From positions 2,910 to 66,909 of the forward strand of contig CAZTQY010000002.1 in NCBI GenBank assembly GCA_964616425.1: 64,000 nucleotides of DNA, given 5' to 3'. This document shows positions 13,971 to 37,232 of the stretch, piece after piece. Position 1 is the stretch's first letter, and each line of letters begins with the position of its first letter. The notes beneath the pieces are model-generated. The model ran no database searches. It was not told the origin of the DNA and saw only the letters and a program-made list of their open reading frames with translations. The position numbers were made by a program, and so were the translations under genes. Source of the stretch: an uncultured Candidatus Saccharibacteria bacterium. Lineage in GTDB: Bacteria; Patescibacteriota; Minisyncoccia; Phycocordibacterales; DATDWN01.

Positions 13971-14043
13971 AATTATCTCATCTACGCGACCTTATTTTCT
14001 TATGAGCAATGCGAATTAGAAAATGGAAGTACTCTTGTGGTGT

Positions 14044-14128
14044 GTTGTTGCTGTTCAATTTTATTCATTCACCGTACGTCAAAGTACGGCTCACTCACAA
14101 AATCTCCAGCGCCTAGCATCTGAGGCAA
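14044..14128 (+). repeat. Dispersed intergenic repeat (GUAC-hairpin family), copy downstream of lysS
   Basis: gttgttgctgttcaatttt...accgtacgtcaaagtacggctcactcacaaaatctccagcgcctagcatctgaggca. Near-identical to the copy at 35326-35410. Confidence 0.7.
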
Positions 14129-14144
14129 TTTAACTCAGATTAGA

Positions 14145-14919: not shown

Positions 14920-15354
14920 ATGCTTATAGGAGAATACACACATAGCATAGATGATAAAAATAGGCTTTCTCTTCCTGCAAAATTTCGAACAGAGCTTGGT
15001 AAAAAAATAGTTGTTACTCAAGGTTTGGATAACTGTCTTTGGGTTTTCAAACATGTAGAGTGGCAAAAGATTGAAGAGAAGTTAAATCAATCTTCAATCG
15101 GTCAAGCTGATAATCGAAGTTTTAACCGCTTGATGTTTTCTAGTGCAGTGGAGGCCGAAGTAGATTCTATCGGTCGAATACTTGTTCCAGAATTTTTAAG
15201 AGACAGAGCAAATTTAAAAAATAAAGTAGTAGTTATCGGGGTCTCTAGTCGAGTTGAAATTTGGAACGAGAAGACTTGGAGCGACTATAAGAAAGTCGTT
15301 GAAAAACAAGCTGATGCACTGGCAGAAAAGTTAGGCCAAGTTGGAGTCATATAA
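14920..15354 (+). CDS. mraZ: Transcriptional regulator MraZ
   Basis: 144 aa. The duplicated DxxxR motif region (IDDKNRLSLPAKFR ... VDSIGRILVPEFLR) is typical of MraZ. Confidence 0.9.
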   Translation: MLIGEYTHSIDDKNRLSLPAKFRTELGKKIVVTQGLDNCLWVFKHVEWQKIEEKLNQSSIGQADNRSFNRLMFSSAVEAEVDSIGRILVPEFLRDRANLKNKVVVIGVSSRVEIWNEKTWSDYKKVVEKQADALAEKLGQVGVI

Positions 15355-15356
15355 AT

Positions 15357-16277
15357 ATGATTCATAAGACTGTTCTTTTACATGAAGCTATAGATGGATT
15401 GGATATCAAAAATGGTGACATTTTTGTTGACGGTACATTGGGAGGAGGCGGACATAGTGAGGAAGTAGCAAAAAGGTTTGGTAATTCTGTTGTCATGATC
15501 GGAATTGACCTTGATCCTGAAGCAATAGAACGTGCCTCTGCACGACTTTCCCCACTAAATCCAAACATACAATACATTCATGGCAGTTTTCGCAACATAG
15601 ATAATCTTTTGGAGACATCTGGTATCAAAAGTGCAGATAAAATTTTGCTTGATATTGGACTTTCTTCAAACCAGTTCGAGGATTCTGGTCGAGGTTTCTC
15701 ATTTCAAAAGGATGAGCCTCTGATAATGTCATTCAAAAAGGATTTAAAACAGGAAGACCTTACCGCGAGAGAAATCGTTAACACTTGGGATTTAGAGAAT
15801 ATATCTACTATCCTCAAGAGCTATGGTGAAGAGCAGTTTGCTTGGAAAATTGCCAAGGCGATAGTAGCTAGAAGAGAGATAAAACCGATTGATACTACAT
15901 TTGATCTGGTTGAAATCATAAAAATAGCCACTCCAAAGTGGTATCACCACAAAAGAATTCACCCAGCTACAAAAACATTTCAAGCTTTACGTATAACTGT
16001 AAATGATGAGATAGAGAGTTTGAAGGATGGTGTTGCAAAAGGGTTTAGTATTCTAAATCCTGGAGGTAGACTGGCGGTCATATCATTCCACAGCATCGAG
16101 GACAGAGTAATAAAAAATTTTTATAGAGATAGAGACAAGGAAGGTTTAGGTAAGGTGATTACAAAAAAACCCATAATACCTACTGAGGCGGAAATAGCAG
16201 AAAATCCTAGATCACGAAGTAGTAAATTGCGAATAATAGAGAAAACAACCGTGCGAAGCCGAGCAGTGGTCGCATGA
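15357..16277 (+). CDS. rsmH: 16S rRNA m4C1402 methyltransferase RsmH (MraW)
   Basis: VDGTLGGGGHS SAM-binding motif, position after mraZ. Confidence 0.9.
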   Translation: MIHKTVLLHEAIDGLDIKNGDIFVDGTLGGGGHSEEVAKRFGNSVVMIGIDLDPEAIERASARLSPLNPNIQYIHGSFRNIDNLLETSGIKSADKILLDIGLSSNQFEDSGRGFSFQKDEPLIMSFKKDLKQEDLTAREIVNTWDLENISTILKSYGEEQFAWKIAKAIVARREIKPIDTTFDLVEIIKIATPKWYHHKRIHPATKTFQALRITVNDEIESLKDGVAKGFSILNPGGRLAVISFHSIEDRVIKNFYRDRDKEGLGKVITKKPIIPTEAEIAENPRSRSSKLRIIEKTTVRSRAVVA

Positions 16278-16286
16278 CCAAATATA

Positions 16287-16598
16287 ATGACAGAAAAAGT
16301 ATTACAAATAAATAATGAGAAGACTATATTCTGGAGTATTTTGGCACTCTTGCTGTTATCTTTTGGTTTCTATATGTATTTTATAAATGCAACAGTACAT
16401 AATGTAGTTGCAAGACAAAATCTTGAAGCTGAAGCATCAAATCTAACACTGACTATTGGCAACCAAGAATTTCAATATATAACAAGCCGTAACAATGTAA
16501 CATTAGCCCTCGCACATTCAATGGGTTTCAAAGATGTTTCAGAAAAAACATTTATATCAAGAGATGGTGGCAAGCAAGTTTCTCTTCTTTCCAGATAA
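16287..16598 (+). CDS. FtsL-like single-pass membrane protein of the dcw cluster
   Basis: 103 aa with a single TM, sitting between rsmH and ftsI. Confidence 0.45.
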   Translation: MTEKVLQINNEKTIFWSILALLLLSFGFYMYFINATVHNVVARQNLEAEASNLTLTIGNQEFQYITSRNNVTLALAHSMGFKDVSEKTFISRDGGKQVSLLSR

Positions 16599-16656
16599 AA
16601 TATTTTTATATTTCATAGTTTTTTGATAAGATAGATATTGCTATTTTCTTTTTAAT

Positions 16657-18363
16657 ATGAAGAACAACTACATACTCAGAATTCGTATAATCTCTCTAGC
16701 TATTTTTGCGTTTGCTCTGTTACTTATCGGTCGATTGTATGTATTGCAGATAGTAAGAAACGATAACTATATAAATAAAGCAGACAGGCAGTATTCATCT
16801 TCGGCAAATAAAGTGTTTAGTCGGGGAACAATATATTTTCAAAATAAAGATAAAACTCTAGTATCAGCTGCCACACTAAAATCTGGTTTTATCGTTGCTA
16901 TAAATCCAGAAATTTTACAAGAGCCTGATGATGTTTGGTTGAAGATAAAAGATTTAATTTCGATTGAGCATGATGCTTTCATATTGAAGGCTAACAAAAA
17001 AAATGATCCATATGAGGAGATTGCTACTCATGTGGACGAGGCTGTTGGAAAACAGATTTCTGATTTAAATATAAAAGGTTTACAAGTATATAAAGAGAGA
17101 TGGAGGTTTTATCCAGGAGGTAACACAGCGGCTCATGTTTTAGGTATTTTGGGGTACAAGGGTGATGAATATGCTGGAAGGTATGGTCTTGAGAGTAAAT
17201 ATGAGACATTACTTGAGCGAAAAGATGGAGCGTATGTTAATTTTTTTGCTGAAATGTTTTCTGATATAAAAGCCGCGACTAATCCAAGTGAAGAAAATGA
17301 AGGAGATATAGTTACGACCATAGAACCTACTGTACAGACTTTTCTTCAGTCTGTTTTGGCTAGCACAACGGAAAAATGGGACTCAGATTTGACTGGAGGC
17401 ATAATAATGGACCCAAAAACCGGAGAAATAATCGCCATGGAAACTTATCCGACTTTTGATCCAAATAACTCTGGTGAACAAAAGAATTCTGCAATATTCT
17501 CAAACCCTCTGGTGGAAAATGTGTATGAAATGGGTTCTATTATTAAACCGCTAACAGTGGCTGCTGGAATTGATCTTGGAGTTATAACATCCAAGTCAAC
17601 GTACTACGACAAAGGTTTTGTGATGATAAGTGGAAAAAAGGTTTCTAACTTTGATGGTAAAGAAAGAGGAGTTGTTAATATGCAAGATTTACTCTCTCAG
17701 TCACTAAATGTTGGTGCTGCATATGTAGAAAAGCTAATAGGTAATAAAAAATTTGCTGAGTATATTAACTTGTATGGTTTGGGAGAGAAAACTGGTATTG
17801 AACTTCCAAATGAAGCAAAAGATTTGATATCTAGTCTAAAAGGAAATATTGATATTGATTTTGCAACTGCATCTTTTGGTCAGGGTATAGCTCTTACTCC
17901 AGTTTCAACTATTAGAGCACTGTCAGTCATTGCAAACGGTGGTTTTCTTGTTAACCCTCACTTGGTTAAAAGTATAAATTATAAAATCGGTGTTTCAAAA
18001 GATACTCCTATAGATCCAGGCAAATATGTTTTAAAGAGAGAGACCACTGAAGAGGTTGCGAGGATGATGACATACAGTGTGGACAATGTGCTTTCTAATG
18101 GTACACTCAAAATACCTAACTATAGTGTGGCTGCAAAGACAGGTACAGCACAGATAGCCAAGGAGGGTGGGGGTGGGTACTATGATGACCAGTTTCTACA
18201 CTCATTTGTAGGTTTTTTCCCATCGTATAACCCAAGATTCATTATATTTTTGTACACTTTGCATCCAAAAGGAGCTCAGTTCGGTTCAGAAACACTAACA
18301 CACCCTTTTATGGATATAGTCAACTTCCTCATTAACTACTACGAAATCCCCCCAGACCGTTGA
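16657..18363 (+). CDS. ftsI: Division-type penicillin-binding protein (FtsI/PBP3-like transpeptidase)
   Basis: N-terminal TM, SIIK (SxxK), SLN and KTGT motifs, dcw position. Confidence 0.8.
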   Translation: MKNNYILRIRIISLAIFAFALLLIGRLYVLQIVRNDNYINKADRQYSSSANKVFSRGTIYFQNKDKTLVSAATLKSGFIVAINPEILQEPDDVWLKIKDLISIEHDAFILKANKKNDPYEEIATHVDEAVGKQISDLNIKGLQVYKERWRFYPGGNTAAHVLGILGYKGDEYAGRYGLESKYETLLERKDGAYVNFFAEMFSDIKAATNPSEENEGDIVTTIEPTVQTFLQSVLASTTEKWDSDLTGGIIMDPKTGEIIAMETYPTFDPNNSGEQKNSAIFSNPLVENVYEMGSIIKPLTVAAGIDLGVITSKSTYYDKGFVMISGKKVSNFDGKERGVVNMQDLLSQSLNVGAAYVEKLIGNKKFAEYINLYGLGEKTGIELPNEAKDLISSLKGNIDIDFATASFGQGIALTPVSTIRALSVIANGGFLVNPHLVKSINYKIGVSKDTPIDPGKYVLKRETTEEVARMMTYSVDNVLSNGTLKIPNYSVAAKTGTAQIAKEGGGGYYDDQFLHSFVGFFPSYNPRFIIFLYTLHPKGAQFGSETLTHPFMDIVNFLINYYEIPPDR

Positions 18364-18380
18364 AATTACTTTATATACTT

Positions 18381-18468
18381 CGTTGTGATTAGATTTTATT
18401 CGATCACTGTACGTTAGAGTACAGCTCACTCATAAAATCTCTCACGCCTTGTCTCTAAAGCAATTTCC
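18381..18468 (+). repeat. Dispersed intergenic repeat (GUAC-hairpin family), copy downstream of ftsI
   Basis: ...ttcgatcactgtacgttagagtacagctcactcataaaatctctcacgcc... The stem ctgtac/gtacag shows compensatory changes relative to ccgtac/gtacgg in the other copies. Confidence 0.65.
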
Positions 18469-18491
18469 ATGGTCTGATCATTATAAATTTT

Positions 18492-19796
18492 ATGGATTAT
18501 CTTAAATTCTTAGCAAAGCAAATACTAAAGCATGAGGCAAAGCTCGTGTTAAAAAAGTATAATCCAAAAGTTATTGCTGTTATAGGTAGTGTTGGAAAAT
18601 CTCTAACTAAAGAGGCTATATATCAGGTTTTATCAAAGAAATTTTTTGTTAGGAAAAGTGAAAAGAGTTTTACTGCAGAGTTAGGTATTCCGTTAACTAT
18701 TATTGGTTGTGGTGAAGGTGTCGGTAGTATTGTTCAGCTTATTAGTAATATTTTTTTCGGACTTCGAGTTATACTTTTCAAATCAACATATCCAACTTGG
18801 CTTATTTTAGAAGTTGATGGAGACAAACCGGGCGACTTGGAAAAAGTCAGTTCGTATTTAAGAGTAGATATTTTGGTAATAACTGCCATAGGCGAAGTTC
18901 CTTCTCATATAGAAAAATTTGGTGACCTATACACTTTTTTGAAAGAAAAAGTTGCTATGGTTGATGCTGTGAGGTTTGGAGGGGGAGTGATATATAACGC
19001 AGATGATCTGGTTACAAGTAACCTTGCTCAAAATTCGAAAGTAAAAATGATCTCAGTTGGTATAGGAGAAGGTGGGACACAGATTTCCGGATCCAAATTT
19101 GAGATTTTGTATGGTACGGGGAAGACTGGTTCAGTTCCGACTGGTATGTCATTTTCAATAAAAAATAAAACCAATCTTTTGCCTGTTAATGTATTCGAAA
19201 CTATTGGTATGCAAAATGAGTATGCTATCTTGTTTGCGTACGCTGTAGGTTTGGAATTTGGTCTTGAACCAGCTCAGTTAGTTCAGTCACTTGGTAAGTA
19301 TAATACTTTGCCAGGACGAATGAGAATGATTCCTGGGATAAAGGATACACTCATAATAGACGATACATATAACTCATCACCAATAGCTATTGCAGAAGCA
19401 ATAAATGTTTTGAAAGAAATAAAATCTGTTGAGAAAAAAATAGCAGTAGTGGGTGACATGCTAGAACTTGGTCAGTTCTCTGCAATAGAACACAGGCGAG
19501 TAGCACAGATGCTAAATGGTGTTGCGACAGATGTTATTTGTGTTGGCTTGCGGACACGTAAAGTCGTTGAGGAGCTAGTCAACTTTGGTTTTCCTGAATC
19601 AAAAATCAATTCTTTCGACACTTCAGATGAAGTTGAAAATTATTTACAAAATCTAATCAGCGAAGGAGATATTATTCTCGTGAAAGGCTCTCAGGCAATG
19701 CGAATGGAACGAATCGTAGAGGGGATAATGAGATATCCAGAGGAGAAGAAGAAACTGTTAGTCAGACAGGAGGAAGAGTGGAGGGGGAGAAATTGA
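18492..19796 (+). CDS. murF: UDP-MurNAc-tripeptide--D-Ala-D-Ala ligase
   Basis: Mur ligase P-loop VIAVIGSVGKS, 434 aa, dcw position. Confidence 0.75.
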   Translation: MDYLKFLAKQILKHEAKLVLKKYNPKVIAVIGSVGKSLTKEAIYQVLSKKFFVRKSEKSFTAELGIPLTIIGCGEGVGSIVQLISNIFFGLRVILFKSTYPTWLILEVDGDKPGDLEKVSSYLRVDILVITAIGEVPSHIEKFGDLYTFLKEKVAMVDAVRFGGGVIYNADDLVTSNLAQNSKVKMISVGIGEGGTQISGSKFEILYGTGKTGSVPTGMSFSIKNKTNLLPVNVFETIGMQNEYAILFAYAVGLEFGLEPAQLVQSLGKYNTLPGRMRMIPGIKDTLIIDDTYNSSPIAIAEAINVLKEIKSVEKKIAVVGDMLELGQFSAIEHRRVAQMLNGVATDVICVGLRTRKVVEELVNFGFPESKINSFDTSDEVENYLQNLISEGDIILVKGSQAMRMERIVEGIMRYPEEKKKLLVRQEEEWRGRN

Positions 19797-20132
19797 TTAA
19801 ATTCCTAACTGAAATTTCCAATTCATTTTCACTATAGATAAATTAAATGGAGTTGAAATATTGCTTTGTTTTTTAAATGGAATCACTAAATCTTTTAATT
19901 TGATCAACATGGATTCTAAATCTTGTTCTGAAGCATTTGGAAAGGTTGCGTACACATAAATTTCAACAGGGGCAGCGTTTACAGTTATCTTGTTCTCTGA
20001 AGCAAAAACTGAAATATCTTTAGGATCATATTCTGTGGCTTTTGCTGCAAATCCATGAATTGCTTCAGCGACTATTTTAATTTCCTCTGGAGAGATTCTA
20101 CTTTTTTCGTAATCAATTCTAACTATAGGCAT
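19797..20132 (-). CDS. Tautomerase-superfamily (4-oxalocrotonate tautomerase-like) protein
   Basis: The internal Met gives MPIVRIDYEKSRISPEEIKIVAEAIHGFAAKATEYDPKDISVFASE, matching the Pro1-I-x-x-I ... S-x-E-x-K ... EAI ... P ... V-x-V ... E pattern. The track ORF start at 20216 runs into the tRNA-end repeat, so the later start is preferred. Confidence 0.45.
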   Translation of the reverse strand: MPIVRIDYEKSRISPEEIKIVAEAIHGFAAKATEYDPKDISVFASENKITVNAAPVEIYVYATFPNASEQDLESMLIKLKDLVIPFKKQSNISTPFNLSIVKMNWKFQLGI

Positions 20133-20151
20133 AATATTAATTATAACATGT

Positions 20152-20170
20152 TGTGACCTTACCGGGAATC
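20152..20170 (-). repeat. Direct repeat of a tRNA 3' end (copy 1 of 3)
   Basis: Minus strand gattcccggtaaggtcaca is identical to the 3' end of the tRNA at 20461-20532. Confidence 0.65.
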
Positions 20171-20308
20171 TTTCATTACATGAAGGGTCCCCGTGTTTGG
20201 ATATTTTTGTTCGCAAAGCTCCAAAACTATCTCAAACAGGCTTCGATTTCCGACGTAGAGTCTCCCAGACTCTACTGTAAGGTCAAAGCTTTTTGCTTCG
20301 CCAAAACC

Positions 20309-20333
20309 TGTGACCTTACCGGGAAATTCGAAA
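20309..20333 (-). repeat. Direct repeat of a tRNA T-loop plus 3' end (copy 2 of 3)
   Basis: Minus strand ttcgaatttcccggtaaggtcaca. Confidence 0.65.
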
Positions 20334-20460
20334 CTTACAGTTTCAGTACACCTTTTCTATTTTTTGTTTCTAACCGAACAAAAAATTATCAAAGGTTTTC
20401 GATTCCCTAAACAAAACATGTTTTGTTTTAAGGTCACAAAATTTCGTGACCTCAATTTTG

Positions 20461-20532
20461 TGACCTTACCGGGAATCGAACCCGGATTTAAGCCTTGAGA
20501 AGGCTTCGTCCTAACCGTTAGACGATAAGGCC
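20461..20532 (-). tRNA. tRNA-Glu, anticodon CUC
   Basis: 72-nt cloverleaf read on the minus strand: GGCCTTA / D-arm GTCT..GGAC / anticodon stem AAGCC-TTCTCAA-GGCTT / T-arm CCGGG-TTCGATT-CCCGG / TAAGGTC-A. CCA is not encoded. Confidence 0.65.
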
Positions 20533-20550
20533 AATAATCTAAATTTAAAA

Positions 20551-20693
20551 CTAGGGAATCGAACCGGCTCTCCTCCTTACAGGAGCAGTATACCTTTCGC
20601 TCTCTGACTACAGAGTGCTCAAGGTCTTGCAGTTGGGTCCCTATCCCAACTTCACCTCTCAAAGACCTTGTCTAACCTCTAGACTATAAGGCC
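20551..20693 (-). pseudogene. tRNA-like fragment or pseudo-tRNA
   Basis: Minus strand starts GGCCTTATAGTCTAGAGGTTAGACAAGGTCTTTGAGA, with an acceptor and D-arm nearly identical to the adjacent tRNA. The anticodon stem AGGTC only finds its partner GACCT about 36 nt later. A distal GCCGGTTCGATTCCC has no matching T-stem or acceptor 3' end. Confidence 0.4.
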
Positions 20694-20745
20694 AATTGAA
20701 CAGGAAAACTATAGCATTTTTTACAAAAAAATCAAAAATAAAAAA

Positions 20746-20784
20746 TTGACAAGTAGCTATTTTGCTATTAAATGTATTTAGGAG
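20746..20784 (+). promoter_or_regulatory. Promoter (consensus -35 TTGACA) and AGGAGG Shine-Dalgarno for the REC-like gene
   Basis: ttgaca 20746-20751, a -10 candidate tattaa/taaatg around 20766-20774, aggagg 20779-20784, ATG at 20790. Confidence 0.4.
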
Positions 20785-20789
20785 GCAGC

Positions 20790-21260
20790 ATGAAAATTCT
20801 GTTGGTAGAGGATGACTGGGTTGAGCGCGAGATGGCGCTCGATGACATCCGTGCACTGCTACCCAGAGCAGAAGTGACCGCGCTTATGAACGCTGGGGAA
20901 ATGCTCCTCAAGGTTCAGGAGGGTACTGATCTGGGTGGCGTGGATGTTGTGGTCATGGAACACCACCTTCCTCTCTGGGCAATCGGTGAGTCAGAGGAGG
21001 AGTGGGACCAAGCAGTAGGCAATCTCGAAAGAGATTTTCCTGAGGTGATTAGGGAATGGGACGGTCAGTTAGCTGGTGAGCGGCTCGTCCGCTACATGCG
21101 ATCGATAGGAATTCTGATTCCCGTTCTCTTCCACACGTACACTCAGGAATCACACATCGCTGAGGATGTTCGGAGAATGTCCAAAGTCTTCTACTGCTGC
21201 AAGCTACTTGAAAGGGAGCATCTTCCTGAAGCGATCACTGCGGCTGTGCAGGCTCGCTGA
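20790..21260 (+). CDS. Stand-alone CheY-like receiver (REC) domain protein, probably a pseudo-receiver
   Basis: KILLVEDD start. Glu appears where the phospho-acceptor Asp is expected (VDVVVMEHHLP). Conserved T/S (LFHTYT) and Lys (SKVFY) are present. About 57% GC. Start placed at 20790 (SD-ATG) rather than the track's 20772. Confidence 0.55.
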   Translation: MKILLVEDDWVEREMALDDIRALLPRAEVTALMNAGEMLLKVQEGTDLGGVDVVVMEHHLPLWAIGESEEEWDQAVGNLERDFPEVIREWDGQLAGERLVRYMRSIGILIPVLFHTYTQESHIAEDVRRMSKVFYCCKLLEREHLPEAITAAVQAR

Positions 21261-21265
21261 ACAAC

Positions 21266-21316
21266 CCGCTACAACTACGCACGGACGACCCGTTCGAAGT
21301 TGAGCGGGTTTTCCAA
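21266..21316 (+). terminator. Terminator hairpin after the REC-like gene
   Basis: aacccgct ... agcgggtttt. Confidence 0.5.
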
Positions 21317-21342
21317 TGTCAGGAAGGTGATATAATTTAATT

Positions 21343-21708
21343 ATGTCATTCGAAAACATATTTGGTCCGGACAGTTTGAGCATAGAAAAGAACCGGATAC
21401 TGGGTTTGCTCGAAAGAGATGGTCAGTCAGATGAAGCCATGTCCGCAGTACTGGCTTGGACAGAACAGATGGAAGTCAGATCGCTTATTTCATCTAGAGA
21501 AATGGTCCGTTTCAACGTAGATAGAGCTGCTCTATACGAGGCAATTGGCGATATAGAAGGAATGTTTGAAACACTTGCCGAAGCTTTTTATCAAATCAAA
21601 TCAGAAAAGGATTCAGGAAATGAACCAGGGGATTGGCAGGAGTTGTATGATAAGGTTGAAGGACTTTTAAAAGAAATGGATGCAAAATATCCAACTAATA
21701 ACGAGTAA
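21343..21708 (+). CDS. Hypothetical acidic protein
   Basis: 121-aa ORF. An extended -10 (tgatataat) sits immediately upstream. Confidence 0.35.
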   Translation: MSFENIFGPDSLSIEKNRILGLLERDGQSDEAMSAVLAWTEQMEVRSLISSREMVRFNVDRAALYEAIGDIEGMFETLAEAFYQIKSEKDSGNEPGDWQELYDKVEGLLKEMDAKYPTNNE

Positions 21709-21709
21709 C

Positions 21710-22063
21710 ATGTTAAAGAACAAAGTACAGTCACTCACAAATGCTCTGAGAGGTGTTGGATTCGTCTGGAAGGAGGAGTCAAACTTTGGTGTTATTATCT
21801 TTTTTGCCGTATTGGCACTTTGTATAGGATATTATTTTGATTTCACTCTCATTGAGTACTCTATCTGTGCTGTTATCATCACCATAGTTATGGTTGCTGA
21901 GATGGTTAACACTGCTATCGAGGATATATGTAACAAGATAGAGCCAAATCAGGATCCATCGATTGGTAAAATAAAAGACATTTCAAGTGGGTTTGTGCTT
22001 ATTGCTTCTCTTGGTGCAGGCGTTGCAGGACTTTTGGTATTCTTCAATCATTTCACATTTTAG
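21710..22063 (+). CDS. dgkA: Diacylglycerol/undecaprenol kinase family protein (DgkA)
   Basis: Three TM helices and the DgkA signature AEMVNTAIEDICNK. Internal Met start at 21710 preferred over 21680 because the earlier start overlaps the upstream gene. Confidence 0.65.
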   Translation: MLKNKVQSLTNALRGVGFVWKEESNFGVIIFFAVLALCIGYYFDFTLIEYSICAVIITIVMVAEMVNTAIEDICNKIEPNQDPSIGKIKDISSGFVLIASLGAGVAGLLVFFNHFTF

Positions 22064-25837: not shown

Positions 25838-25962
25838 ATTATAAAAGTCGGTAAAATTAAACTAAGAAAATAGCTTTAGATGCTAGGCGCGAGCGAGTAC
25901 TACGACCAAGCTGTACATTTAGTACTGTGCGTGGAGTATACGGAGTGAGCAACAACGCAGAT
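25838..25962 (-). repeat. Dispersed intergenic repeat (GUAC-hairpin family), minus-orientation copy downstream of yqeY
   Basis: The reverse complement reads gttgttgctcactccgtatactccacgcacagtactaaatgtacagcttggtcgtagtactcgctcgcgcctagcatct. It combines motifs of the 14044 and 37128 copies. Confidence 0.55.
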
Positions 25963-25974
25963 GAAGCTATTTTA

Positions 25975-35305: not shown

Positions 35306-35325
35306 TTCCAAAAACACCCCATATA

Positions 35326-35410
35326 CGTTGTTGCTGTTCAATTTTTCTCATTCACCGTACGTCAAAGTACGTATCACTCGCAAAATTTCCAGCGCCTAGT
35401 ATCTGAGGCA
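35326..35410 (+). repeat. Dispersed intergenic repeat (GUAC-hairpin family), copy downstream of ctpA
   Basis: cgttgttgctgttcaatttttctcattcaccgtacgtcaaagtacgtatcactcgcaaaatttccagcgcctagtatctgaggca. Confidence 0.7.
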
Positions 35411-35438
35411 TTTTTGAAATTATTACGTTTATGCTAAT

Positions 35439-37127: not shown

Positions 37128-37232
37128 TAAATTTCTTTGTTGTTCGTTTGCGTTTGCTCCACGCGCAGTATACTTATACAGCTTGGTCGCAAGCCGCACT
37201 CACGCCTCGAACTTTAGAAAAAATTTACCGGA
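37128..37232 (+). repeat. Dispersed intergenic repeat (GUAC-hairpin family, second subtype)
   Basis: tttgttgttcgtttgcgtttgctccacgcgcagtatacttatacagcttggtcgcaagccgcactcacgcctcgaacttta. Confidence 0.65.

What the first reader, a model, noticed from the sequence alone, without database searches (positions are those of the whole stretch)
20140..20700. tRNA-Glu locus carrying three direct repeats of the tRNA 3' end plus a tRNA-like fragment, with palindrome-rich spacers
The 3' end of the tRNA (ttcccggtaaggtcaca) recurs at about 20152-20170 and 20309-20333, spaced about 152 nt apart. A second tRNA-like 5' half (20551-20693) lies beside the intact gene and shares the GGCCTTAT.GTCTA..GGTTAG.AC.A acceptor and D-arm. 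The spacers hold perfect palindromes: gtagagtct-ccc-agactctac, aaacaaaacatgttttgttt, and taaggtcacaaaat...attttgtgacctta pairing with the tRNA 3' end itself. Repeated tRNA 3' ends are the classic scar of site-specific integration and excision, and the locus borders a foreign island. The regular spacing could also mean a decayed tandem tRNA array or a small non-autonomous element that carries the att sequence.
Basis: seen in the sequence. Interest (0 to 1): 0.7.

Follow-up and report, generated by a model that had tools for sequence, protein, structure and literature searches.

The report
tRNA-Glu hotspot with palindromic repeat modules
The repeated tRNA ends are real; they cap small, conserved, self-folding non-coding modules stacked beside a tRNA-Glu gene at a gene-swapping hotspot in a Parcubacteria genome, with no integrase found in any cargo set examined, so this is not an ordinary island scar and the modules may be a new kind of mobile or RNA element.

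Summary
TGTGACCTTACCGGGAA occurs exactly three times (20152, 20309, 20459). The third copy is the 3' end of a minus-strand tRNA-Glu(CTC). All three palindromes and the tRNA-like 5' half are present.

In relatives, murF-to-tRNA-Glu is hypervariable. One lineage has the empty site, with the tRNA abutting the murF stop. Others carry 0-3 unrelated cargo genes and 0-2 units. A strain with 98% identical murF DNA carries a different gene here. No cargo set holds an integrase, and the window's cargo gene lies outside the repeats.

Each repeat closes a 135-150-nt branched palindrome. Its far end is an inverted copy of the tRNA 3' end. Inside are covarying hairpins, one with a conserved UGUAA loop.

The upstream "tRNA fragment" is a 161-nt element found in five lineages. 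It joins a tRNA-Glu 5' fragment to the same core, and 8 of its 45 pairs show compensatory changes.

This module family appeared only beside tRNA-Glu genes and matches no Rfam family.

Best reading (0.45): small integrase-less recombination modules accreted at the tRNA ends. Main rival (0.3): structured leader and trailer RNAs of the tRNA operon. A decayed tRNA array is not supported.

The parts
20460..20532 (-). tRNA-Glu(CTC) gene, no encoded CCA. Its 3' end (20459-20475 on the + strand) is repeat copy 3.
   Evidence: ARAGORN; Rfam RF00005 at 63.6 bits. The same tRNA sequence is present in L018, L152, L154 and in L030/L046/L068.
20309..20458 (-). Unit 2. Parts in + coordinates: repeat copy 2 at 20309-20325; hairpin C (gaaac-ttaca-gtttc) at 20330-20344; long hairpin B at 20351-20395; TTCGATTCCC (inverted T-loop copy) at 20398-20407; hairpin A palindrome at 20409-20428; inverted tRNA-end copy TAAGGTCACA at 20429-20438; spacer to the tRNA at 20439-20458.
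   Evidence: MFE -38.9 kcal/mol, z = -4.8 on the minus strand and -5.8 on the plus strand. The left part is 88% identical to L013 and the right part 87% to L009.
20152..20308 (-). Unit 1. Parts: repeat copy 1 at 20152-20168; hairpin C (UGUAA loop) at 20170-20186; hairpin B at 20192-20240; TTCGATTTCC at 20242-20251; hairpin A at 20255-20275; inverted copy TAAGGTCA at 20278-20285; spacer that forms a 20-nt imperfect palindrome with copy 2 at 20277-20319.
   Evidence: MFE -51.4 kcal/mol, z = -5.4 and -6.9. Homologous units occur in L025, L152 and L076. A compensatory change in hairpin A is seen in L013.
20533..20693 (-). Parts: tRNA-Glu 5' 30 nt at 20664-20693; P1 strands TTTGAGA at 20657-20663 and TTTTAAA at 20544-20550; hairpin H1 at about 20628-20654; ACCTT/AAGGT stem enclosing H2; GTATACTG plus hairpin C at 20570-20593; T-loop-like GGTTCGATTCCC at 20554-20565. 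There is no acceptor 3' strand.
   Evidence: Not called by Rfam or ARAGORN. Present in L018, L019-24, L046 and L029. RNAalifold finds 45 pairs, 8 with compensatory changes (4-sequence version). z = -3.2.
20708..20735 (-). Promoter-like site TTGATT-16 nt-TATAGT, with TG before the -10 box, placed to drive B, tRNA-Glu and the units.
   Evidence: The block 20698-20740 is 97.7% identical to L009, where murF DNA is about 74% identical.
19797..20132 (-). Strain-variable cargo gene: a 111-aa tautomerase-like protein with 31% GC. It lies between the murF stop and repeat copy 1, that is, outside the repeats.
   Evidence: Weak Pfam Tautomerase hit, E = 0.008, below the curated cut-off. Present in L025 (78% identity) and, inverted, in L152. 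Absent from L008, whose murF DNA is 98% identical.
18492..19796 (+). murF-like Mur ligase, the last gene of the dcw cluster and the left anchor of the hotspot.
   Evidence: Pfam Mur_ligase_M and Mur_ligase_C. Homology with relatives stops at 19789.
20790..22063 (+). Right flank: ORF156 (GC 0.53), ORF121 and dagK. ORF156 and ORF121 are variably present in relatives. dagK is the conserved right anchor.

Best explanation
The locus is a recombination hotspot at a tRNA-Glu(CTC) gene that converges on the end of the dcw cluster (murF) in a Parcubacteria (CPR) genome.

The two extra copies of the tRNA 3' end are not bare scars. Each is the closing strand of a 135-150-nt non-coding module. The other end of each module carries an inverted copy of the same tRNA sequence (TGACCTTA ... 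GGGAATCGAA). The module therefore folds back on itself and re-creates the duplex of the tRNA gene's 3' end. Three internal hairpins branch from this stem, and one has a conserved UGUAA loop.

The 'tRNA-like fragment' upstream (element B) is a sibling module. It joins a duplicated tRNA-Glu 5' fragment to the same structured core.

My inference is that these are small, integrase-less recombination modules, resembling att-carrying mini-elements (CIME- or MITE-like). They would enter at the tRNA ends and regenerate the tRNA while leaving or bringing a copy of its end. They can be stacked by accretion and shuffled between strains. The agent would be a recombinase acting in trans, or recombination across the 17-40-nt identities. 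Cargo genes would turn over in the same interval, mostly by replacement between the conserved flanks.

Shown: the repeats, the fold, the family, the covariation, the empty site, the mosaicism, the strain-level cargo replacement, and inversion of the tRNA in some lineages.

Inferred: that the modules move or recombine at the DNA level, and by what enzyme.
For: Exact repeats far beyond chance.

Empty site: in L019 the murF stop is followed after 4-5 nt by the tRNA 3' end. A copy of the tRNA end lies right after the murF stop in L013 and, degenerate, in L008. In L018 it follows a duplicated remnant of the murF end.

Twelve lineages show twelve arrangements, with 0-2 units, 0-3 unrelated cargo genes, and B present or absent. 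L008 has 98% identical murF DNA, yet the whole 19790-20459 interval is replaced by a different 258-aa gene.

Units are mosaic. The right part of window unit 1 matches L011 and L076, the right part of unit 2 matches L009, and the left part of unit 2 matches L013. Units also occur beside tRNA-Glu(TTC) and in other gene contexts (L076, L029, L066, L116, L118).

In L029, B is flanked by a roughly 40-nt direct repeat made of 16 nt of leader plus the tRNA 5' end.

The tRNA with its promoter is inverted relative to murF and dagK in L151, and it is co-directional with murF in L029.

The units in the window are almost pure Watson-Crick palindromes and equally stable on both strands (z -4.8 to -6.9).

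Assemblies often break at this point.
Against: No recombinase was found in cis in any locus. The window's own 55 ORFs were only looked through as the first 70 residues of each and not all were scanned against Pfam.

No free, viral, plasmid or dispersed copy of a unit or of B was found.

The window's cargo gene lies outside the repeats. One cargo swap (L154) has no repeat at all, so much of the turnover may be plain homologous replacement.

Several features fit a functional RNA at least as well. These are the compensatory changes, an excess of G-U pairs on the tRNA-sense strand (32 against 18), placement inside a tRNA operon with a conserved promoter, and DNA identity well above that of neighbouring genes.
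Confidence: 0.45

Rival explanations
1. The units and B are functional structured RNAs of the tRNA-Glu operon: B a 5' leader RNA and the units 3' trailer RNAs. They would be transcribed from the conserved promoter. The copies of the tRNA ends would be kept because the RNAs need an acceptor-like closing stem, for example for RNase P or RNase Z processing or as a decoy for a factor that binds the tRNA end. The copy-number differences would then come from ordinary duplication and loss.
For: B has 45 consensus pairs, 8 with compensatory changes in only 5 sequences, and its P1 helix holds G-U pairs that work only on the tRNA-sense strand. Hairpin C has 4 of 5 pairs with changes on both sides and 89% of cells paired. 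The covariation score over the ten counted pairs (hairpin C plus the basal core stem) is 0.52 against 0.14 in shuffles, 0 of 500. Hairpin A keeps its shape with unrelated sequences. In 9 of 12 units the tRNA-sense strand folds better, with 32 G-U pairs against 18. All parts are co-oriented behind a promoter that is 97.7% conserved. The core of B is about 97% identical between lineages whose murF DNA is about 73-74% identical.
Against: The units are dispensable: they are absent from L019, L154, L068, L108 and L109. In many genomes an intrinsic terminator lies between the tRNA and the unit (L116, L118, L126, L030, L152). The window's units have almost no G-U pairs and fold equally well on both strands. 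Mosaic recombinant units, duplicated tRNA 5' and 3' fragments, and remnants at the murF stop all point to DNA rearrangement. No Rfam family matches.
Confidence: 0.3
2. Classical integration scars. Integrase-encoding islands or prophages would have integrated one after another into the tRNA-Glu 3' end and later decayed, leaving attL and attR repeats with arm remnants between them.
For: The repeat runs from the T-loop to 2 nt past the discriminator (17-24 nt), which is the usual identity block for integrases that target tRNA genes. An empty site exists and displaced fragments lie at the murF stop. tRNA genes are the standard integration target (PMC4383910).
Against: No integrase was found next to the tRNA in any of the cargo sets or the up to 72 neighbouring ORFs scanned. 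There was no attP-like hit in viral contigs; the four 17-mer hits lie inside one phage coding gene. The intervals between repeats are conserved, covarying and palindromic, which is not what decaying arm DNA looks like. Units occur without any cargo. The cargo in the window lies outside the repeats.
Confidence: 0.12
3. A decayed tandem tRNA-Glu array, or tyrT-type trailer repeats made by local tandem duplication and unequal crossing-over, with no mobility and no function.
For: The spacing is regular, 150-157 nt. There is a precedent in the E. coli tyrT operon, where 178-bp trailer repeats each start with the tRNA-Tyr 3' end (own knowledge). B begins with a tRNA 5' half.
Against: The units contain no tRNA 5' half, D arm or Glu anticodon arm, and relaxed ARAGORN and Rfam find nothing tRNA-like in them. 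The two units in the window share only the repeat and short motifs, and each is closer to units in other genomes than to its neighbour. Single units of the same architecture occur in many genomes. The structure is maintained by compensatory change.
Confidence: 0.08

Closest known systems
Genomic islands integrated in tRNA genes (tyrosine-integrase type, as catalogued by Islander, PMC4383910)
   Same: The tRNA gene is the target. A displaced fragment of the tRNA forms a direct repeat with the regenerated gene. Empty and filled sites occur among relatives. Cargo is strain-specific.
   Different: No integrase. The repeat-bounded intervals are 135-150 nt and non-coding. Cargo lies outside the repeats or has no repeat. 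tRNA 5' fragments are duplicated as well (B). The inserts are conserved structured palindromes.
CIMEs (cis-mobilisable elements) and site-specific accretion arrays at att sites, e.g. the ICESt1/ICESt3 family in Streptococcus (own knowledge)
   Same: Integrase-less elements bounded by att repeats and stacked in tandem at one attachment site.
   Different: CIMEs are kilobase-sized and carry genes, and they derive from a recognisable parent ICE. Here the modules are about 140 nt and no parent element or integrase is seen.
E. coli tyrT operon trailer repeats / rtT RNA (own knowledge; Rfam holds an rtT family, which did not match)
   Same: The 3' end of the tRNA recurs at regular intervals of about 150-180 nt in the trailer, on the tRNA strand, probably co-transcribed.
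   Different: The tyrT repeats are near-identical local duplicates. Here the units are divergent and mosaic, are palindromic with an inverted tRNA-end copy, and occur singly in many genomes.
Folded single-strand recombination sites: integron attC and CTX-phi attP (own knowledge)
   Same: Imperfect palindromes of about 60-150 nt whose structure is conserved while the sequence is not. The folded stem imitates the duplex target. They lie next to small single-gene cargo.
   Different: No integron integrase and no evidence for Xer involvement. The attC R and L boxes were not seen by eye, though this was not formally tested. The last cargo gene is not followed by a unit. This is an analogy only.
MITEs and other small non-autonomous repeat elements
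   Same: Size, terminal inverted repeats, strong hairpin potential, no coding capacity.
   Different: They are not dispersed: the core is found only beside tRNA-Glu in 1.24 Mb of sequence. The terminal repeats are the tRNA's own end. No parent IS was found.
Group I introns in Patescibacteria tRNA genes (bioRxiv 10.1101/2025.07.03.662931)
   Same: An interrupted tRNA-like gene in this phylum that tRNA finders miss.
   Different: No RF00028 match even at E up to 10. The insert is only about 125 nt, and there is no 3' exon because the acceptor 3' strand is missing. That paper reports Asn and Asp tRNAs interrupted at position 35/36, not Glu.

Membership tests
tRNA-integrated genomic island (integrase type) | Direct repeat made of a displaced tRNA fragment and the regenerated tRNA end | tested here: met
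   Three exact 17-mers, extending to 20-23 nt. Displaced copies lie at the murF stop in L013, L008 and L018.
tRNA-integrated genomic island (integrase type) | Integrase gene inside the element, usually next to the tRNA | tested here: not met
   No integrase Pfam family is on record for any cargo gene in L008, L009, L011, L018, L146, L151, L152 or L154. None was listed for the up to 72 ORFs beside other tRNA-Glu genes (which shows only 25 of 51 families), and none for the 10 ORFs scanned singly. Nothing integrase-like stood out among the first 70 residues of the window's 55 ORFs, but this was a partial check.
tRNA-integrated genomic island (integrase type) | The repeats bound the variable, foreign DNA; relatives show the empty site | tested here: inconclusive
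   The empty site exists in L019. In the window, however, the repeats bound only non-coding units and the cargo gene lies outside them. The cargo in L154 has no repeat.
Tandem tRNA gene array (decayed) | Each repeat unit derives from a whole tRNA gene, with remnants of the 5' half, D arm and anticodon arm | tested here: not met
   Rfam at E up to 10 and relaxed ARAGORN find no credible tRNA in the units. The units share only the 3' terminal 17-24 nt with the tRNA.
tyrT-type trailer repeats | Units are close tandem copies of one another, each starting with the tRNA 3' end | tested here: not met
   The tRNA end is present, but units 1 and 2 share only short motifs. Each is closer to units in other genomes than to the other. 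There is no Rfam rtT match.
MITE | Terminal inverted repeats and many dispersed copies; a related autonomous IS | tested here: not met
   Inverted ends are present. The copies, however, occur only beside tRNA-Glu, and no transposase is linked to them apart from one IS30-like fragment in L126.
Integron attC / folded-strand att site | Imperfect palindrome with conserved structure; R''/R' core boxes; integron integrase nearby; each cassette is an ORF followed by its site | tested here: inconclusive
   The palindrome and conserved structure are met. The core boxes were not searched formally. No integrase is present. The ORF-plus-site order is not kept in the window, where the tautomerase-like gene is followed directly by murF.
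Group I intron in a tRNA gene | Match to the group I model and two exons that join into a complete tRNA | tested here: not met
   No RF00028 hit. B lacks an acceptor 3' strand.
Any curated RNA family (Rfam 15) | Score at or above the gathering threshold | tested here: not met
   Only the tRNA passes. All other hits in 19900-20900 overlap the tRNA (one sits in its immediate 3' trailer), and all score far below their gathering thresholds.

The most novel reading that the evidence does not exclude
The units and B are a previously undescribed family of elements specific to tRNA-Glu in Parcubacteria. They are about 140-nt modules with a conserved branched fold that includes a UGUAA-loop hairpin. 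They carry copies of the tRNA's own ends, so the folded single strand mimics the duplex of the target. They might be recombined into and out of the tRNA ends without a linked integrase, in the manner of integron attC or CTX-phi attP sites. Alternatively they act as tRNA-end-mimicking RNAs. Either way they would organise a cargo-exchange hotspot in very small genomes.
Probability: 0.25. Interest if true: 0.75.

Novelty: new variant of a known kind. Interest (0 to 1): 0.5.

Why it matters
CPR/Patescibacteria genomes are tiny, and little is known about how they exchange accessory genes. This locus shows a defined hotspot between the cell-wall cluster and a tRNA-Glu gene, where strains with 98% identical flanking DNA carry different genes. 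It also shows that the repeated tRNA ends belong to a conserved family of structured modules rather than to dead prophage ends.

If the modules are mobile without a linked integrase, they point to an unrecognised recombination route. If they are RNAs, they are a new class of tRNA-linked leader and trailer RNAs that mimic tRNA ends.

There is a practical point too: such modules break assemblies and can be mistaken for tRNA pseudogenes or att scars.

Tried and rejected
1. A second tRNA or an intron-bearing tRNA in 20533-20693. ARAGORN with intron options, relaxed thresholds and the mitochondrial mode gave only low-grade calls. Rfam at E up to 10 gave nothing. Rejected.

2. Group I intron. No RF00028 match and no 3' exon. 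The Patescibacteria tRNA-intron paper concerns Asn and Asp tRNAs. Rejected.

3. A phage attP carrying the 17-mer. The four viral-contig hits all lie inside the same phage coding gene, so they are chance matches. B and unit motifs gave 0 viral hits. Blastn against phages and plasmids hit only tRNA-Glu genes.

4. An integrase next to tRNA-Glu. Pfam runs on up to 72 plus 10 neighbouring ORFs listed none. displays only 25 of the 51 families it found, so a weak hit could be hidden.

5. A T-box-like reading of the 'UUUGAGA' segment of B, which contains the Glu codon GAG. The segment is paired in helix P1, with covariation, and there is no T-box match. Rejected.

6. Strand asymmetry as a test of RNA against DNA function. 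The bias towards the tRNA-sense strand is only moderate, and it is absent in the window's own units. Inconclusive.

7. The GTDB genome scan with murF found only distant relatives, at most 40% identity. Closer ones came from the protein search plus contig look-ups.

8. An exact-sequence look-up of the tautomerase-like protein found nothing on record.
Full report
OBSERVATION

The window holds one tRNA gene, tRNA-Glu(CTC), at 20460-20532 on the minus strand (ARAGORN; Rfam tRNA at 63.6 bits).

On the plus strand its 3' end reads TGTGACCTTACCGGGAA. This 17-mer occurs exactly three times in 64 kb, at 20152, 20309 and 20459. No further copy appears even with three mismatches allowed, and 0 of 100 shuffles reach three copies. 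Identity extends to 20-23 nt.

So is the tRNA-like 5' half: 20672-20696 is 88% identical to 20511-20535.

CONTEXT

The flanking genes are MraZ, RsmH, FtsL-like, a PBP and a MurF-like ligase at 14920-19796 on the plus strand. Then come a minus-strand 111-aa tautomerase-like gene (19797-20132), the repeat region, two small ORFs, dagK and a 920-aa DUF8128/TraG-like gene.

MurF homologues place the window in Parcubacteria (CPR). The best named relatives are 'Parcubacteria bacterium C7867' at 75% and Zambryskibacteria at about 58%. GTDB representatives reach only 40%.

The DUF8128 gene, YqeY, RmuC and L21 keep their order in the relatives whose contigs extend that far. They are therefore backbone and not an island.

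COMPARATIVE ANATOMY OF THE murF-tRNA INTERVAL

Percentages are MurF protein identity to the window.

- L019 (65%): the murF stop is followed after 4-5 nt by the tRNA 3' end. This is the empty site.
- L013 (78%): murF stop, 'tt', then a copy of the tRNA end that opens one unit.
- L008 (99% protein, 98% DNA): a degenerate copy sits right after the murF stop. A 258-aa gene of unknown family follows and ends 6 nt from the tRNA. There are no units and no tautomerase-like gene.
- L018 (76%): a 283-aa gene has been inserted with duplication of the last 40 nt or so of murF. Then come the old murF end, 'tt', a slightly degenerate repeat, one unit and the tRNA.
- L025 (76%): tautomerase-like gene, a unit-1 homologue and a terminator.
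- L152 (65%): the tautomerase-like gene inverted, a MOSC gene, a 118-aa gene, the unit-1 homologue, a terminator and the tRNA.
- L009 (75%): a 232-aa membrane-like ORF, then one unit with a degenerate repeat.
- L011 (77%): three unrelated genes, a 9-nt repeat and a short unit.
- L154 (71%): a DUF2200 gene with no unit and no repeat.
- L151 (67%): the tRNA and its promoter are inverted.
- L146 (64%): different cargo again.

No cargo gene carries an integrase family in the precomputed Pfam column. Several assemblies break within 50-75 nt of the murF stop or at the tRNA.

The interval is therefore a hotspot whose ancestral state is murF abutting the tRNA.

THE UNITS

Read on the tRNA strand, each unit has this layout:

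5' TGACCTTA - hairpin A - (C)GGGAATCGAA - long hairpin B - GGTRTACTG - hairpin C with loop UGUAA - TTCGATTCCCGGTAAGGTCACA 3'

The first and third elements are inverted copies of the last element, which is the repeat. The unit therefore folds into a branched rod whose closing stem reproduces the duplex of the tRNA gene's 3' end.

The folds are far more stable than shuffles: z = -5.4 and -4.8 on the tRNA strand, and -6.9 and -5.8 on the other strand.

The same architecture recurs beside tRNA-Glu genes in other Parcubacteria contigs, including a tRNA-Glu(TTC) and unrelated gene contexts (L029, L066, L076, L116, L118).

The hairpins keep their shape while their sequences change:

- Hairpin A is GTAGAGTCT/AGACTCTAC in the window, GCAGAGTCT/AGACTCTGC in L013, AAACAAAAC/GTTTTGTTT in unit 2 and CTTTGTCT/AGACAAAG in L116.
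- Hairpin C has 4 of 5 pairs with changes on both sides and 89% of cells paired. The covariation score over the ten counted pairs (hairpin C plus the basal core stem) is 0.52 against 0.14 in shuffles (0 of 500), and slid controls score much lower.

Units are mosaic. The right part of window unit 1 matches L011 and L076, the right part of unit 2 matches L009, and the left part of unit 2 matches L013.

By eye in the alignment, unit 1 shows only a handful of differences from its L025 homologue over about 116 nt, while murF DNA in relatives of this rank is about 73-74% identical.

ELEMENT B

The 'tRNA-like fragment' is a 161-nt element (20533-20693, minus strand) placed between a conserved promoter-like site and the tRNA. 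The promoter-like site is TTGATT-16 nt-TATAGT, and that block is 97.7% identical to L009.

B is present in L018, L019-L024, L046 and L029. It is absent from L009, L011, L030, L068, L108, L118 and L154.

B begins with the first 30 nt or so of a tRNA-Glu. In L019 this fragment is of a different allele from the resident tRNA. B lacks an acceptor 3' strand.

RNAalifold on five copies gives 45 pairs, 8 with compensatory changes. Helix P1 (UUUGAGA/UUUUAAA) contains G-U pairs that work only on the tRNA strand.

The 3' part of B (ACCTT-hairpin-AAGGT, RTACTG, hairpin C with UGUAA) is the same core as in the units. The B copy in L029 even carries the L013-type core and is flanked by a direct repeat of about 40 nt, made of leader plus tRNA 5' end.

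B and the units have no Rfam match. They have no match in viral contigs, phage records or plasmids beyond the tRNA itself.

INTERPRETATION

Three facts argue against plain integrase scars:

1. No integrase was found in any locus examined (and the look-ups above).
2. The repeat-bounded DNA is conserved and structured.
3. The cargo lies outside the repeats.

A decayed tRNA array is excluded because the units carry nothing of the tRNA except its last 17-24 nt.

Two readings remain, and they are not exclusive.

DNA reading (preferred, 0.45): small integrase-less modules carry copies of the tRNA ends, are inserted, stacked, shuffled and inverted by recombination at those ends, and mark a cargo-exchange hotspot. 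It is supported by the following:

- the empty site
- the displaced copies at the murF stop
- the duplicated 5' fragment with leader in L029
- mosaic units
- inverted tRNA orientation in some lineages
- replacement of the whole interval between strains with 98% identical murF DNA
- the near-perfect Watson-Crick symmetry of the window's units

RNA reading (0.3): B and the units are leader and trailer RNAs with acceptor-like stems. It is supported by the following:

- covariation
- an excess of G-U pairs on the tRNA strand (32 against 18, with 9 of 12 units more stable in that sense)
- co-orientation behind a conserved promoter

It is weakened by dispensability and by terminators that lie between the tRNA and the unit in many genomes.

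The analogy with folded-strand sites (integron attC, CTX-phi attP), with CIME accretion and with the E. coli tyrT repeats rests on my own knowledge. These are leads and not tests.

VERDICT

The sequence observation is correct. The integration-scar interpretation is partly right: this is a hotspot, an empty site exists, and the repeats do derive from the tRNA end. It misses what the repeats belong to.

The thing is a new variant of a known kind. tRNA-end repeats at a hotspot are ordinary. The conserved palindromic module family, including the upstream element, appears undescribed in the libraries searched.

Interest is 0.5. It would rise if DNA mobility without a linked integrase, or a processed tRNA-end-mimicking RNA, were demonstrated.

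Noticed in passing
window 14041-14132 (+), 18393-18449 (+, partial), 25867-25974 (-), 35320-35415 (+), weaker 37135-37207 (-): A dispersed intergenic repeat family of about 90 nt (..cgttgttgctgttcaatttt.ttcattcaccgtacgtcaaagtacggctcactcacaaaatctccagcgcctagcatctgagg..) with a CCGTAC..GTACGG hairpin. The same element sits right after the murF stop in L146-L150 and occurs in L009 and L013. It may be a REP/MITE-like element or a shared regulatory or terminator module.
   Followed up: partly
window 20790-21260 (+): A 156-aa ORF of unknown family has GC 0.53 against about 0.37 for its neighbours. Homologues at 41-43% identity sit at the same position in L019 and L030. It is absent from L009, L018 and L151.
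   Followed up: partly
L151 2898-2971 (+) and flanks: In this relative the tRNA-Glu gene with its promoter is inverted relative to murF and dagK. In L029, L001 and L002 the tRNA is co-directional with murF.
   Followed up: partly
L018 8700-9790: Insertion of a 283-aa gene of unknown family duplicated the last 40 nt or so of murF. The old murF end survives as a remnant next to the displaced tRNA-end copy.
   Followed up: no
window 20570-20593, 20330-20344, 20170-20186 (minus strand): With its closing pair, the hairpin C loop reads C-UGUAA-G, which resembles a tRNA-Tyr (GUA) anticodon loop. Relaxed ARAGORN calls a 'tRNA-Tyr(gta)' inside element B. The meaning is unknown.
   Followed up: no
L034, L039, L059, L143 (metagenome contigs with a tRNA-Glu that ends ..CACC): Contigs with a different type of tRNA-Glu (CCA-encoding) also carry a 17-nt copy of the tRNA 3' end 135-180 nt downstream, after a terminator, together with an inverted T-loop-like segment. 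The geometry may therefore not be limited to Parcubacteria.
   Followed up: no
L147-L150, and many of L026-L145: Assembled contigs often end within about 50-75 nt of the murF stop or at the tRNA-Glu. This is what strain-level heterogeneity or repeats at the locus would produce.
   Followed up: no
window 20133-20151 and L025, L152: The tautomerase-like gene is preceded by TATAAT or TACAAT placed 7 nt before its ATG in three genomes, which suggests a leaderless transcript with its own promoter.
   Followed up: no
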